Assembly: GCF_009834535.1 (NCBI RefSeq)
Contig: NC_045696.1
Location: forward strand, 2,420,001 to 2,484,000
Source of the DNA: Camelus ferus
Taxonomy: Eukaryota
DNA: 64,000 nt
Direction of reading: 5' to 3'
How positions within the stretch are numbered: position 1 is the first letter of the stretch; every line of letters starts with the position of its first letter. Below, piece by piece: positions 25,289 to 53,867 of this stretch. The translations under genes and the position numbers were made by a program. The notes beneath the pieces are model-generated. The model ran no database searches. It had not been told where the DNA came from and saw only the letters and a list, made by a program, of their open reading frames with translations.

Positions 25289-25631
25289 TGCTATAGACTG
25301 AATGTGTCCCCCCAAAATCCTATATTGGAACCCCAGCTCCCGGTGTGATGGTGTCAGGGTGGGGCCTTTGGGAGGTGATGAGGTCACGAGGGTGGAGCCC
25401 CATGAACGGGGTCAGTGCCCTCATAAAGGAACCTCAGAGGACTCCCAGCCCCTACTGCCACGTGAGGAGGCAGCAGGAAGACAGAACCAAGAACAAGGCT
25501 CTTCCCAGAATGAATCTGCGGGCATTTGATCTCAGGCTTCCAGCCTCCAGAATGGTGAGAAGTAAATCTCTGTGATTTATAAGACACCCAATCTTGGTGT
25601 TTTTTAATAGCAGCCTGAATGGACTGAGACA
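25289..25631 (+). mobile_element. MaLR solo LTR (MLT1A-like), near full length
   Basis: Starts 'tgctatagactgaatgtgtccccccaaaat', contains 'ttccagcctccagaatggtgagaagtaaat', ends 'gcagcctgaatggactgagaca'. Confidence 0.9.
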
Positions 25632-27327: not shown

Positions 27328-27913
27328 TGATGCTGGAAAAACGGTGTGGGGCATGAGGAGGGCTGAGTCCCAGGTCTCGGCTGAGCCCCTGGGACGCGCC
27401 CCGCCGAGTGTGGGTCCTTGGCTTCGTGCAGGAAAGAGTTCAAGTGCGAGCCGCTGTTGAGTGAAGGCAGATTTATTTAGAGAGATGCACACTGCATAGA
27501 GTGTAAGGCCAGAGAAAGGCCAGGCAAGAGCTGTGGGAATTGGGTGCTCAGGTTACAGTGAAAGTAGGCACACACACACACCACAGAGTGCGGGCCGCCT
27601 CCAGAGGGGAGGGAGCGAGAGAGGGCCGCCAGGTGCGCTGCTGGTTTTTATGGGCTGGGTAGCTTCACAGGCCTCCAGGTGGGACCATTCCAACTGCCCG
27701 GGGGAGGGGGCTGGGGCTCCCAGGGCCTGGGCCCCCGCCCACTCTGACCTTCTGTGGTCGGCCTTGGGGCTGTCCTGGCGCCCGTGGGCATGCTATTTAT
27801 CATGCTGATACGCTACATACACTGAGCATATGATGAAGCTCAAGGTGGGCTAGAAGTCAGACCTCCTGCCGTCTTAATCCTCCCTGTGCCCTGCCCCCTT
27901 CCAGCCTGTCTCA
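27328..27913 (-). mobile_element. ERV1-like solo LTR
   Basis: Minus-strand termini TGAGACAGGCTGG...GCATCA, with the same 5' 13-mer as the LTR at 11721. Minus-strand AATAAA ('atttattt' ~27472). Imperfect 4-bp flanking duplication actc/actg. Confidence 0.7.
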
Positions 27914-28864: not shown

Positions 28865-29679
28865 TGTAAGGGGTTAATGCCTCATGGGAAAAGCTGTGTT
28901 TCCTGTGCCCCACTGTCCCCGCTGCTGACCCCCCGGCTGTTTCCCCACACGAGCTGCGCTCCAGTGCCCTGCAGACACCAGCCGGCTGTCCCACAAGTCG
29001 ATTCAAGGCTGACATCAATTACCGGAGTCAGCACAGGGCCCAGAAGTGAGGGGCTCAGTCCCACAGGCTACCCCTGCTCCAGAGCCGGCCATGGTCCCCA
29101 GTGCACCCCCACTTCTGTCTGACTTGGCTTCAGATCAGAGGGTCCTGTCACTCCCCCCCCATGAAAATTTGCCAGGATGGCTTACAGTGCCTCCCTTACT
29201 ATTGCCAATTAACCACAAAGACAACACAGGAACATCCCACGACGCGGGGAGCGATGCCTGGGCCGGGCGTTGGGGAGGGGGCCCGGCTTCCAGCCCCTCC
29301 ACGTGTTCACCACCTGCAAGCTCTCTGAACCCTGTCCTTCTGGGGTTTTTGGAAGTTCCATTACATGGTCATGATTGATTAAGTCATTGGCCGTTGGTGA
29401 CTGAGCTTTCCCTGGCCCCTCTGTCCTCCTCAGAGGAGCGGGTGGGGAGGTGGGGCGGAAAGTTCCAGCCTTCGTGGCAAGATTGGCTCCCCGGCACCTG
29501 GCCCCCATCCAGTGGTCATATCGGGGCTTTCCGAAAATGATGTTATGAACGTCAACCCAGGTGTGGCTGAATGTGATTTGCCAGGAAGAACCTCTGAGGA
29601 AGTCCCAAGGGGCCTGAGCGCTCCGTGCGGGGACAGGGTGAAGGCCGATTACATGCCCCTGTTGTGAATCAGTGCCACA
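28865..29679 (-). mobile_element. MER21-like solo LTR
   Basis: TG...CA termini plus characteristic phrases 'ggctcagtcccaca', 'gctctctgaaccctgtcc', 'catgattgattaagtcattggcc', 'gaaagttccagcc'. Confidence 0.8.
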
Positions 29680-29990
29680 GGGGCCTTCGGAACTTTCCCT
29701 TAGGGACGTGGACATTCGGCCACACTCCTGGTGGTTAGGAGATCGGGCTGGACAGGCTCCAGAGAGGCTTGGGGGGTTAACGTTTAACAACCGGCCCTCC
29801 AGGGGCACCCGGGCAGCTGCATCTGCTAGTTTACTCAGTGTAAACACCACAACAGACGTCGCTGAAGGCCGGGTCTGGAAGAGCTGGGTTGTGCCTGCAC
29901 CTGTGCGGGAACGTAGGGGCCGGGAGGAGGCTGGGCAGCCAGCCTACCGACAGCGGGGTCTGGGCCCCTTTGGTGAGGGCGCCGTTTAGC

Positions 29991-30049
29991 CTTCCGAGCA
30001 GGGGACAGGCACAACGGCGCGGAGCCTGGGGTCTCAGCCGGGGACAGAA
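29991..30049 (+). repeat. Inverted repeat, outer left arm (diverged)
   Basis: Reverse complement aligns to 31859-31918 with 7 mismatches and 1 indel over 60 columns (manual). Weaker similarity continues to ~29946. Confidence 0.9.
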
Positions 30050-30070
30050 ACATGGAGGTCACTTGTGGTT

Positions 30071-30292
30071 GGACGGTGGAGTCTGAAGCCCAAGTCCTGG
30101 GGAGCGAGAGGCCCTGGGGCAGTGTTGACAGGAAGGCCAGTGGGTGAGCCTCGGGCTTCCCAGCACCCGGGGCCAGTCCTGCAGGGCGGTGCCCGGAGGG
30201 CGGCCAGCGAGGGGCCGGGTGGGTGCCCTGGAGCAGGGGAGGGGGCGCATCCGGGAGGGCCGCCCGCTGTGCCCAGCTGAGGCCTGGCCCCA
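30071..30292 (+). repeat. Inverted repeat, inner left arm (222 bp)
   Basis: Manual alignment to the reverse complement of 31272-31493 gives 219/222 identical with no gaps. Confidence 0.98.
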
Positions 30293-30759
30293 TGCACCTC
30301 CTTGGAGAGATAAGAACCCTCCTGTTTGAAGAGGGGCCGTACTCAGGCTGCGGTGTAGATGGCTCTGCTGGGATGGGGAGGAAACGACACAGGCCGCAGG
30401 GGCTGGGGAGCGCCCCGGGGGGATGAAGCAGGGGTCCCAAGGGGGTGAGGGTGGGCCAGGGTGGGTGAGGGCGGCTGCCGCCACAGGGAGGGGGGCGGGT
30501 GGAGGGCAGAGCCTGGGGCTGCGGGAGCGGGGCTGAGAAGGTGACCTCGCCCTCCCGCCGCTGCTCCTGCTTCCTGTCCTGCCCGGGGAGGTAGCTGAGG
30601 GCCCGGGCAGCCTCACGGGCATCTGAGCGAGGCAGGCCTGGTGCTGCTGTCCCGGGAATTCTGGGAGGGGCCCCAGGCTGGCCCGCCGAGGGGTAGGGGA
30701 GAGGGGAGCGTGGAGGGAGGGGCAGCTCCTCTCACCCCCTCGTGACCGCCACCTACAAC

Positions 30760-30800
30760 CGCGATTGTCTCCATTTTAGAGATGAGAAAACTGAGGCCCT
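30760..30800. mobile_element. MIR core fragment inside the inverted-repeat spacer
   Basis: 'ctccattttagagatgagaaaactgaggc'. Confidence 0.7.
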
Positions 30801-31271
30801 GCCCGGACCCCCACCACCTAGGCCTGGCTCTCCCTCCCTGGCAAATGTGTCTCTGGCTCAGGGAGGGGGCAGGGCTGACAGAGCAGGGCCAGAGGGGGCT
30901 GCAGGAGACCCTGGCCCCCAGCGCCACTGTCAGGTCTTCCTCTGGGCGGAACGTGCAGGCCTTGGTCCCTGTTCCTCTGTGACTCCCCTTGGATGTCCCC
31001 AACCAAAACAGATGAAGCTGTTTCATCGCATTTGGTTGGAGTGTGTCAGTGGGGAGGTGGCAGAGGGCAGGTCCCGCCCAGTCCCTGGGCCCCCAGCACG
31101 TGGCTGTGCTCCAACCGCTGGGGGAGGGGCTGTCACAGGGCGGCGTGTCCTGGGTGGCCTTGGGGGAGGTGGGCAGCATGTGATGTGATGCAGTTTGCAG
31201 GGCAGGAGCGCTGGGTGACCTGGGGCAGGGGTCCTGGTCTGCGACAGTATGGCCGTCCAGGTTAAAGGGTG

Positions 31272-31493
31272 TGGGGCCAGGCCTCAGCTGGGCACAGCGG
31301 GCGGCCCTCCCGGATGCGCCCCCTCCCCTGCTCCAGGGCACCCACCCGGCCCGTCGCTGGCCGCCCTCCGGGCACCGCCCTGCAGGACTGGCCCCGGGTG
31401 CCGGGAAGCCCGAGGCTCACCCACTGGCCTTCCTGTCAACACTGCCCCAGGGCCTCTCGCTCCCCAGGACTTGGGCTTCAGACTCCACGGTCC
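31272..31493 (-). repeat. Inverted repeat, inner right arm (222 bp)
   Basis: Reverse complement of 30071-30292. The ORF track shows the same peptides on opposite strands (30065+ vs 31284-; 30059- vs 31269+). Confidence 0.98.
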
Positions 31494-31858
31494 GTCCGAA
31501 GTGGGAGGAAGGGGCAGGGCACAACCACTGAAGGAAGGACACAGCCGTTGAGGACAGGACACACTGGTTAGAACCAAGAAGGCAGAAGACGCGCCCTCCA
31601 GTAGACCTTGGGCCCGCTGGTGCACCCACAGGCGCCAGGACAGTTCCCTGGCTGACCACAAAAGGTCAAAAAGTGGGAGGGGGCATGTCCTGGAAACCCT
31701 CGCCCCTTCCCCAAAGTGGGTGGTTAGCACTTTCGCACGGGAAATCACGCAGCCCCTAGAACCTAACCATCCCGCATGGTGGTCGCTCTCACGCTCCCCC
31801 TCTCGCCTCCAGGCAAGAACCTATTCTCCCCCAACACATCCACCAATGGCTCCCACGG

Positions 31859-31918
31859 TTCTGTCCCCGGCCGAGACCCCGGGCTCTGCGGTCATCGTGC
31901 CTGTGCCCTGCTCGGAAG
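31859..31918 (-). repeat. Inverted repeat, outer right arm (diverged)
   Basis: ttctgtccccggccgagaccccgggctctgcggtcatcgtgcctgtgccctgctcggaag versus reverse-complemented left arm ttctgtccccggctgagaccccaggctccgcg-ccgttgtgcctgtcccctgctcggaag. Confidence 0.9.
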
Positions 31919-32089
31919 TCTGGAGAGTGTCCACACCCGCAAGCCCCGACGCCGCTCTCGGTTCCCCCTCCCCGCTCCGCCCGCTGCTCCCCGCCTCCCT
32001 CTTCTCTCCCTCGTCCTTCAAGCCCCCGACCCCTGACCCCTGCGTGCAGCCTGGCGCCCAGAGCAGTCACAACTACCATTTGTGTTTAG

Positions 32090-32600
32090 ATAGACTTAAT
32101 TTTAGGTTTACAGGAGAGCTGTGAAGACAGGGCAGGGGGTTCCCGTCTGCCCCGCACCCCGTCTGCCCCGTGACTACCTGTTACTAACCCCGCACGTTAC
32201 TGTGGTCCATTTGTGACAGGAATGAGCCAATACTGACCCACCGATCAGGATGGGGTTTTTTGTTTGTTTGTTTTTAGCTTTTTCCTACTTTCTGGCACCG
32301 CAAGTGCTCCAGGCTCATCTCTGATATCTCCTGCCGCTTTCCCCGGAGCCCCAGGGCCTTGTCCCGGGACGCGTTTAAGAAACTGACGTCTGGCACTGGG
32401 TGTGCTCACTGCTGGGGGGCCGTTGCGTCCAGGCCCTCGCAGCTCCTGCGCACAGAGGTGCTGCCCCGTGTGCAGCGGACACAGGCCTGTGAACGTTTCT
32501 GTGTAACTGGTTGTATCTCAATAAGCCAAATATGGGTCTCTGACCTAATCTAGACCCCATGGGTCATTCCCGCCTCCTCCTCTTGCTTACCTGGAAAGTC
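32090..32600 (-). mobile_element. Old L1 3'UTR fragments (L1MC/MD-like)
   Basis: 'ttttaggtttacagg...catttgtgacaggaatgagccaatactga' and 'tactttctggcacc...ctccaggctcatct...ggtgtgctcactgct'. Confidence 0.65.
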
Positions 32601-53510: not shown

Positions 53511-53867
53511 TGTTACGGGCTGAATATTTGTGTCCCTCAGATTCTTATGCTGAAACCCCAGTCCCGGATGTAGCGGCATTAGGGGGCGGGGCCTTTGCGA
53601 GGTGATGAGGGCGCGAGGATGGAGCCCCCATGAGTGAGCTCTGTGCCCTTACAAGAGGGGGTTCCAGAGACAGCGCGCTGTTCTCTCGCCGCCGTGTGAG
53701 GAGACAGCTGAAAGAAGCAGCTGTAGACACGCCAGCAAGAGGGCCGGCCCGACCCCAGGCCTGCCGGCCTCGGTGGGGGGCCTCCAGCCTCCAGAACTAT
53801 GAGACTCAGATGTCTGCGGTCTAAGCCCTCAGTGTCTCTGCCGTCGCAGCCAGCGCCGGTGGAGACG
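53511..53867 (+). mobile_element. MaLR solo LTR (MLT1A-like), GC-shifted
   Basis: Starts 'tgttacgggctgaatatttgtgtccc'; contains 'ggagcccccatga' and 'ccagcctccagaactatgaga'; collinear with the copy at 25289. Confidence 0.85.

What the first reader, a model, noticed from the sequence alone, without database searches (positions are those of the whole stretch)
30071..31493. Near-perfect 222-bp non-TE inverted repeat flanking a 979-bp spacer: candidate invertible segment
Seen: 30071-30292 and 31272-31493 are reverse complements with no gaps and only 3 mismatches (30075/31489, 30162/31402, 30211/31353). The spacer is 30293-31271. The arms resemble no SINE, LINE or LTR I recognise, and no other long near-identical duplication was seen in the window. 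Known: inverted repeats of this size can mediate recurrent small inversions by non-allelic homologous recombination, and such inversions are hard to detect with short reads. Inference: the ~1-kb core may be polymorphic or recurrently inverted in this lineage.
Basis: partly seen in the sequence, partly recalled or inferred. Interest (0 to 1): 0.75.

Follow-up and report, generated by a model that had tools for sequence, protein, structure and literature searches.

The report
Old mirror duplication, core kept identical
A 221-base stretch of non-coding mammalian DNA sits twice in mirror image around a 979-base spacer and is the almost identical core of a longer, much more worn duplication that an inserted element (likely a retroviral end-repeat) cut in two; the core is likely kept alike by copy-to-copy repair, a known process that could also flip the spacer, but no flip and no function were seen.

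Summary
The repeat is real: 30071-30292 and 31272-31493 are reverse complements with 3 mismatches in 222 nt. It is not a free-standing young duplication. The arms continue outwards as 29918-30071 and 31837-31995, with 36 mismatches in 148 aligned bases (score 116, best of 200 shuffles 38). One 344-nt gap in the right arm joins the two parts. The gap is a 340-nt LTR-like element with a near 4-nt target-site duplication, and the left arm has the empty site. The near-identical block ends at that insertion point (3/222 against 36/148; p = 7e-13). Best reading: an old inverted duplication, split by an LTR insertion, whose inner 221 nt is likely still homogenised by gene conversion while the cut-off part diverged. 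The arms are shorter than those of documented recurrent human inversions, and only 6 of 319 human inverted pairs picked from sequence alone proved polymorphic. Known kind; tidy natural experiment; no function shown.

The parts
29918..30071 (+). Left outer arm (diverged part of the old inverted duplication)
   Evidence: Aligns to 31837-31995 inverted: 112 matches, 36 mismatches, 11 gap columns, score 116. Best of 200 shuffles 38; best of 99 real tiles elsewhere in the window 45
30068..30071 (-). Empty insertion site in the left arm (reads CAAC on the minus strand)
   Evidence: Single 4-mer opposite the two 4-mers that flank the insert in the right arm
30072..30292 (+). Left inner arm, homogenised core, 74.8% GC
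   Evidence: 221 ungapped columns, 3 mismatches to 31272-31492; GC
30293..31271 (.). Spacer, 979 nt, single copy in the window, 67% GC; the segment that a crossover between the arms would invert
   Evidence: no Rfam match at E up to 1; no Pfam match in any of 11 overlapping or adjacent long frames
30774..30797 (+). Short MIR-like motif (label recalled, not tested against a library); usable as an orientation marker
   Evidence: Located; no significant second copy in the window
31272..31492 (-). Right inner arm, homogenised core, about 75% GC
31493..31496 (+). Target-site-like 4-mer CGTC, left of the insert
   Evidence: the best gap start is 31493-31494
31497..31836 (+). 340-nt LTR-like insert interrupting the right arm (begins CG, ends CA)
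   Evidence: Present as one 344-nt gap; related to the element at 27328-27913 with 129 matches and 43 mismatches, score 116, best of 200 shuffles 41
31837..31995 (-). Right outer arm (diverged); its first four bases, CATC, are the second target-site-like 4-mer
   Evidence: (pairs I4, I7)
27328..27913 (-). Neighbouring solo-LTR-like element of the same broad kind as the insert (not part of the inverted repeat; used for comparison)
   Evidence: 586 nt, begins TG, ends CA, flanked by CAGT/GAGT, with TATA-like and poly(A)-signal-like motifs

Best explanation
The 221-nt near-identical arms are the inner part of a longer inverted duplication (about 375 nt per arm) whose right arm is interrupted by a 340-nt insert, likely a retroviral solo LTR; the inner part is likely kept alike by repeated gene conversion between the arms, while the part cut off beyond the insert likely stopped converting and diverged. 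Steps. (1) Shown: outer and inner arms are colinear across a single 344-nt gap, and the left arm has the empty site, so the duplication is older than the insertion. (2) Shown: identity steps from about 99% to about 76% at the insertion point. (3) Inferred: the insertion broke pairing between the arms, and the roughly 150 nt outside it was too short, or already too worn, to keep converting. (4) Inferred: the inner arms, under 1 kb apart and very G+C-rich, pair now and then in the germ line (break repair within one chromatid or between sisters, or a replication template switch), and one overwrites the other. (5) Predicted: such events would usually end without crossover, and a rare crossover would invert the 979-nt spacer. 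No function is needed, and none is proposed.
For: Inner 3/222 against outer 36/148 mismatches, Fisher p 7e-13; corrected distances 0.014 (0.003-0.040) and 0.29 (0.20-0.42). The outer homology is far above both shuffled and real-sequence controls. There is one 344-nt gap with its best start at 31493-31494, the outer edge of the near-identical block; a randomly placed edge would fall within 4 nt of the junction about 2% of the time. Near target-site duplication CGTC/CATC opposite a single CAAC. Inner arms are 75% GC, a level reached by 0.24% of other 222-nt stretches in the window, the direction reported for gene-converting palindrome arms (PMC8981503 passages). The conversion rate needed at equilibrium is about 0.6-9e-6 per site per generation, assuming a human-like mutation rate. 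That is near the 5.9e-6 quoted for human autosomes and below the 4.5e-5 quoted for X palindromes. Theory expects TE insertions and large indels to end conversion (PMC3924837 passages).
Against: One sequence cannot separate many conversions from one late overwrite. The longest unbroken identity is 86 nt (blocks of 86, 48 and 81), below the quoted minimal efficient segments (PMC2583991, PMC3966225), although PMC2583991 notes exchange through matches under 50 bp between repeats 5 kb apart. The GC excess over the immediate neighbours is modest (outer arms 68-72%, spacer 67%). No orthologue was seen, so concerted evolution was not tested. The insert begins CG rather than TG, and its LTR label was not tested against a library.
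Confidence: 0.65

Rival explanations
1. One late overwrite: the whole old duplication had diverged to about 76%, and a single recent template switch or conversion recopied the inner 221 nt, stopping at the insert on one side and at the end of homology on the other.
For: It fits the same sharp step and the same boundary. Template switching homogenises imperfect inverted arms and can invert spacers (PMC8604942 passages).
Against: The cases in the passages seen from that paper are yeast arms of 7-16 bp with spacers up to 70 bp. Homologous conversion is said to need about 92% overall identity (PMC3966225), far above 76%.
Confidence: 0.2
2. The first reader's idea, which is compatible with the best explanation: crossovers between the arms are frequent enough that both orientations of the spacer segregate in camelids today.
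For: In the 70 of 612 rows seen of PMC13629690 Table S1, 5 of 7 candidates with repeats up to 420 bp and spacers up to 1.6 kb were polymorphic. HsInv0045, with 256/257 bp repeats and a 940 bp spacer, has a minor allele frequency of 0.46. Arm-to-spacer ratio here is 0.23, and allele frequency rises with that ratio (PMC6748972).
Against: Those candidates were picked because an inversion had already been called. Among pairs picked from sequence alone, 6 of 319 were polymorphic. Recurrence is documented for repeats of 654 bp or more, and HsInv0031 (285/249 bp) is treated as a unique event. Y palindrome P6 showed 3 inversions against 56 conversions. There is no read evidence here.
Confidence: 0.2
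3. Selection on a structure: the region is transcribed and the inner arms are kept complementary because a 221-bp RNA duplex (or a paired regulatory element) does a job.
For: The + strand is predicted to fold with the arms fully paired apart from the three mismatches. Retention for a long time is compatible with selection.
Against: Any such repeat folds this way. Near-perfect DNA identity with no tolerated wobble on the + strand points to copying rather than to compensatory change. There is no Rfam match and no Pfam match in 11 local frames. The conserved block ends at a transposon junction.
Confidence: 0.07
4. Assembly or polishing artefact: the second arm, or its high identity, was made by mis-assembly or by reads mapped to the wrong arm.
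For: No reads could be examined.
Against: There are no N in the window. The arm continues into a diverged, colinear outer part across a target-site-flanked insert, which an assembler would not invent. One of the three mismatches is a CpG-to-TpG-type change. Polishing could erase a few differences but not 24%.
Confidence: 0.04

Closest known systems
Small human inversions flanked by short inverted repeats: HsInv0045 (256/257 bp, 940 bp), HsInv0031 (285/249, 644), HsInv0147 (140/140, 1550), HsInv0193 (418/418, 618) (PMC13629690 Table S1 rows)
   Same: Same geometry and size: repeats of a few hundred bases around a spacer of about 1 kb.
   Different: Those repeats are SINE or LTR copies and both orientations have been seen. 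Here the arms have no third copy in the window, carry an old diverged extension, and only one orientation is known.
Gene-converting palindromes of mammalian sex chromosomes, including FLNA-EMD (HsInv0389) and Y palindrome P6 (PMC8981503, PMC3961182, PMC3723533 passages; Caceres et al. 2007 not read, cited through these)
   Same: Arms about 99% alike, raised GC, boundaries that shift over time, conversion commoner than inversion.
   Different: Those arms are kilobases to tens of kilobases long (median 37 kb), mostly carry genes, and concerted evolution was shown across species. This arm is 221 nt, non-coding, probably autosomal, and seen in one assembly.
Termination of concerted evolution by TE insertion or large indels (Fawcett and Innan 2011, PMC3924837 passages)
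   Same: An insertion marks the line between a homogenised and a freely diverging part of a duplicate.
   Different: Here both states sit side by side in one 375-nt arm, with the empty site preserved, in sequence with no known gene.
Template switching between short inverted repeats (PMC8604942 passages)
   Same: It homogenises arms and can invert the spacer.
   Different: It was described there for arms of 7-16 bp and spacers up to 70 bp in yeast; these arms are 221 nt and 979 nt apart.

Membership tests
NAHR-mediated polymorphic or recurrent inversions (InvFEST class) | Inverted repeats over 90% identical on both sides of the segment | tested here: met
   98.6% over 222 nt
NAHR-mediated polymorphic or recurrent inversions (InvFEST class) | Repeat length in the range where recurrence is documented (654 bp to 24.2 kb in PMC6748972) | tested here: not met
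   Core 221 nt, longest perfect block 86 nt; shorter repeats do flank some polymorphic inversions
NAHR-mediated polymorphic or recurrent inversions (InvFEST class) | Both orientations observed among individuals, mixed across haplotypes | not testable with these tools
Gene-converting inverted repeats and palindromes (FLNA-EMD, X and Y palindromes) | Arm identity far above what the age of the duplication predicts | tested here: met
   3/222 against 36/148 in the colinear outer part, p 7e-13; the empty site shows that the duplication predates the insert
Gene-converting inverted repeats and palindromes (FLNA-EMD, X and Y palindromes) | Raised GC content in the arms | tested here: inconclusive
   75% against 58% for the window, top 0.24% of 222-nt stretches, but the spacer is 67% and the outer arms 68-72%
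Gene-converting inverted repeats and palindromes (FLNA-EMD, X and Y palindromes) | Orthologous repeats in other species, arms closer within than between species | not testable with these tools
   No mammalian genome collection; no look-alike in earlier windows
Gene-converting inverted repeats and palindromes (FLNA-EMD, X and Y palindromes) | Kilobase-scale arms, mostly gene-bearing | tested here: not met
   221-nt core; 0 of 11 local long frames matched Pfam; median X-palindrome arm 37 kb. It works like these palindromes but is not filed as one
Solo LTR of an endogenous retrovirus (for the insert 31497-31836) | TG...CA termini | tested here: inconclusive
   Begins CG, ends CA
Solo LTR of an endogenous retrovirus (for the insert 31497-31836) | Short target-site duplication and an empty site in the paralogous copy | tested here: met
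   CGTC/CATC (3 of 4 alike) against a single CAAC in the left arm
Solo LTR of an endogenous retrovirus (for the insert 31497-31836) | Interspersed relatives with LTR anatomy | tested here: met
   One relative at 27328-27913 with TG/CA ends and a near target-site duplication; score 116 against a shuffled maximum of 41
Solo LTR of an endogenous retrovirus (for the insert 31497-31836) | Match to a named family in Dfam or Repbase | not testable with these tools
   No repeat library is held; likeness to an ERV1-type family of even-toed ungulates is recalled only
Functional long double-stranded RNA | Transcription across both arms, editing or processing, covariation | not testable with these tools
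   The fold is predicted; no Rfam match; no RNA data or orthologues

The most novel reading that the evidence does not exclude
A miniature FLNA-EMD: a 221-nt arm pair, below the textbook minimum for efficient recombination, has stayed in concerted evolution for 40 million years or more and flips its 1-kb, G-rich spacer again and again across camelids and other even-toed ungulates, giving a short-read-invisible two-state allele, possibly of a regulatory element, with the LTR junction as a built-in dated control for how short a duplicate can be and still convert.
Probability: 0.12. Interest if true: 0.6.

Novelty: new member of a known kind. Interest (0 to 1): 0.3.

Why it matters
As it stands, this is a clean small example of a known process. 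A transposon insertion likely split one duplicate into a part that goes on being copy-corrected and a part that ages normally, so a 99%-identical repeat is much older than it looks. That is a caution for dating duplications by identity. It also brackets the arm length at which conversion between nearby mammalian repeats persists: about 220 nt did, about 150 nt beyond an insert did not. If long reads showed both orientations, it would add a hidden 1-kb inversion to camelid variation. If orthologues showed repeated flips, it would extend recurrent toggling to far shorter, non-transposon repeats than documented.

Tried and rejected
Data that could not be had. No whole genome is held for this window. 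The one run search, restricted to PacBio libraries, listed no run (none was listed, which is not the same as none existing), so no reads were laid. Exact-pattern scans found no homologue: arm motif in viral contigs 0, spacer motif in metagenome contigs 0, insert motif in viral contigs 0. The insert motif in metagenome contigs gave 5 hits, and all 5 were chance, matching only the 19-22 nt around the motif. There were no look-alike stretches among earlier windows.

Ideas rejected. (a) Homology running further out than 29918/31995: score 29, reached by 34 of 100 shuffles. (b) Homology running on into the spacer: a weak match (30495-30554 with 31063-31118, score 36) beat 100 of 100 shuffles but was equalled or beaten by 6 of 148 real GC-rich tile pairs, so it is not accepted. 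(c) A 4-nt indel at the outer edge: the single-gap alignment needs none. (d) Coding or known RNA: 0 of 12 frames matched Pfam (11 local, 1 near the window start); Rfam 0 for the window at gathering scores and 0 for 29500-32300 at E up to 1. (e) Tandem structure in the arms: none. (f) Base skew as an orientation marker: the spacer is G-rich on + like the left arm (0.27, 0.06, 0.22 against 0.22), too weak to use. (g) Naming the flanking genes through earlier notes: nothing found.

Literature. Ten full-text searches showed no paper on this locus or on camelid inversions of this kind. The library lacks most subscription papers. A search of the PMC13629690 supplements for 'chr21' gave 0 because chromosomes are written as bare numbers. 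I saw 70 of 612 rows of its Table S1, so a human inversion at the matching place is not excluded.

Full report
Observation. The inverted repeat is as described: 30071-30292 and 31272-31493, 222 nt, no gaps, 979 nt apart, with mismatches at 30075/31489, 30162/31402 and 30211/31353. In a self-BLAST of the 64 kb it has E = 1e-107; no other pair exceeds 83% identity or 129 columns. The window has no N. It looks like mammalian non-coding DNA, with L1-like, LTR-like and camelid-type SINE-like pieces (labels recalled from reading, not tested against a library).

The repeat finder and BLAST also reported weaker inverted matches just outside the arms (pairs I4 and I7; 29946-30071 with 31962-31837). A local alignment extends them to 29918-30068 and 31840-31995 with 112 matches, 36 mismatches and 11 gap columns. 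Its score is 116, against a mean of 28 and a maximum of 38 in 200 shuffles, and a maximum of 45 among 99 real 1.2-kb tiles from the rest of the window. With cheap gap extension, one alignment runs through inner and outer parts with a single 344-nt gap in the right arm at 31493-31836. Sliding the gap start from 31487 to 31499 gives the fewest mismatches at 31493-31494. So the duplication is about 375 nt per arm, and the right arm is interrupted.

The insert. The 344 nt are a 4-mer plus a 340-nt element (31497-31836) that begins CG and ends CA. It is flanked by CGTC and CATC, and the left arm has a single CAAC at that place. The element is related to a 586-nt element at 27328-27913 on the minus strand (129 matches, 43 mismatches; score 116, best of 200 shuffles 41). 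That element has TG and CA ends, CAGT/GAGT flanks and TATA-like and poly(A)-signal-like motifs. I read the insert as a shortened solo LTR; the family name could not be tested. Because the left arm has the empty site, the duplication came first and the insertion second.

The step in identity. Inside the insertion point the arms differ at 3 of 222 sites (3 of 221 for the true core); outside it they differ at 36 of 148 (Fisher p = 7e-13; corrected distances 0.014 and 0.29). The step is abrupt: the first 54 ungapped columns outside already hold 11 mismatches. Outward bins of 40 columns give 8, 7, 10 and 11 mismatches, at most a slight gradient. With assumed neutral rates of 1.5-3.5e-9 per site per year (my assumption, no call), the outer parts last matched 42-98 million years ago and the inner parts 2-5 million years ago (full ranges 29-139 and 0.4-13). 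These ages are rough, and GC-rich DNA may evolve faster. No homology was found further out (34 of 100 shuffles reach the score), and a weak match inside the spacer failed a real-sequence control (6 of 148).

Mechanism. Shown: an old inverted duplication, an insertion into one arm, and near identity confined to the inner side of it. Inferred: the inner arms are still overwritten one by the other. A review of duplicate evolution states that conversion continues until substitutions, TE insertions or other large indels disrupt pairing (PMC3924837, passages). The rate needed to hold 0.3-4% divergence is 48-712 times the mutation rate, or 0.6-9e-6 per site per generation at an assumed 1.2e-8. Values quoted in PMC8981503 are 5.9e-6 for human autosomes and 4.5e-5 for X palindromes (passages). 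The inner arms are 75% GC, a level reached by 0.24% of other 222-nt stretches of the window, as expected of GC-biased conversion, but their neighbours are also rich (spacer 67%, outer arms 68-72%). Two of the three mismatches are C/G changes, which GC bias would not remove, and one is a CpG-decay type; three sites prove nothing. A loose G-quadruplex pattern occurs 16 times in 29800-32100 against 134 in the whole window; such motifs could provoke breaks, which is untested. Against steady conversion: the longest perfect block is 86 nt, whereas cutting uninterrupted homology from 232 to 134 bp lowered recombination 20-fold in mouse cells, and human meiotic estimates are 300-500 bp. The same review notes exchange through matches under 50 bp between repeats 5 kb apart (PMC2583991, passages; PMC3966225, passages). 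A single late overwrite by template switching (PMC8604942, passages) cannot be excluded from one sequence.

Does the spacer flip? Not tested. Precedent cuts both ways. In the 70 of 612 rows that I saw of PMC13629690 Table S1, 5 of 7 candidates with repeats up to 420 bp and spacers up to 1.6 kb were polymorphic, among them HsInv0045 (256/257 bp, 940 bp, minor allele 0.46). Those were pre-selected by inversion calls, and one (HsInv0098) carries a deletion of about 685 bp on the inverted allele. Of 319 inverted pairs chosen from sequence alone, 6 were polymorphic in 54 people (passages). In PMC6748972 the 24 NAHR inversions, 21 of which look recurrent, have repeats of 654 bp or more (passages). 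In Y palindrome P6, 83 phased chromosomes showed 3 inversions and 56 conversions (PMC3723533, passages). I put present-day polymorphism at about 0.2.

Function. Nothing points to one. Rfam gives no match; none of 11 long frames over or beside the repeat matches Pfam. The + strand is predicted to fold with the arms paired, as any such repeat would.

Comparison and novelty. It works like the gene-converting palindromes of sex chromosomes and like FLNA-EMD (PMC8981503, PMC3961182, passages; Caceres et al. 2007 not read), but the arms are about 170 times shorter than the median X-palindrome arm and cross-species concerted evolution was not tested, so it is not filed as one. It has the geometry of small human inversions but is not shown to be one. 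Unchecked notes from this scan describe at least two similar non-genic pairs with a young core and worn edges in the same genome, and one in another. They are not support, but they suggest that the kind is common, which lowers novelty. What is particular here is that the boundary is a datable insertion with its empty site intact. Ten paper searches showed nothing on this locus; the library is incomplete and most of Table S1 was not seen.

Verdict. Observation confirmed; inversion idea untested and less likely than not. Best reading: an old inverted duplication with a conversion-maintained core bounded by an LTR-like insertion (0.65). New member of a known kind; interest 0.3.

Noticed in passing
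window 30999-31039: Small self-contained hairpin inside the spacer: a 9-bp outer stem and a 6-bp inner stem, -12.5 kcal/mol as DNA; no shuffle control was run.
   Followed up: partly
window 27328-27913 (minus strand): 586-nt solo-LTR-like element with TG/CA ends, a near 4-nt target-site duplication, and TATA-like and poly(A)-like motifs; related to the insert in the right arm.
   Followed up: partly
whole window: Unchecked notes place a CLIC6 intron 6.9 Mb, SON 7.8 Mb and URB1 8.7 Mb beyond the window, and a chromosome-end satellite 2.4 Mb before it. Scaled on recalled human coordinates, this points to the segment matching human 21q22.3, near HSF2BP-SIK1. Not tested by sequence; no gene was identified in the window.
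   Followed up: partly
window 29800-32100: Loose G-quadruplex-type motifs are about three times denser here (16 in 2.3 kb) than in the window overall (134 in 64 kb).
   Followed up: no
window 25303-25579 and 53529-53823: Two direct copies, about 76% alike, of an old interspersed repeat (MLT-like by recall).
   Followed up: no
   Followed up: no
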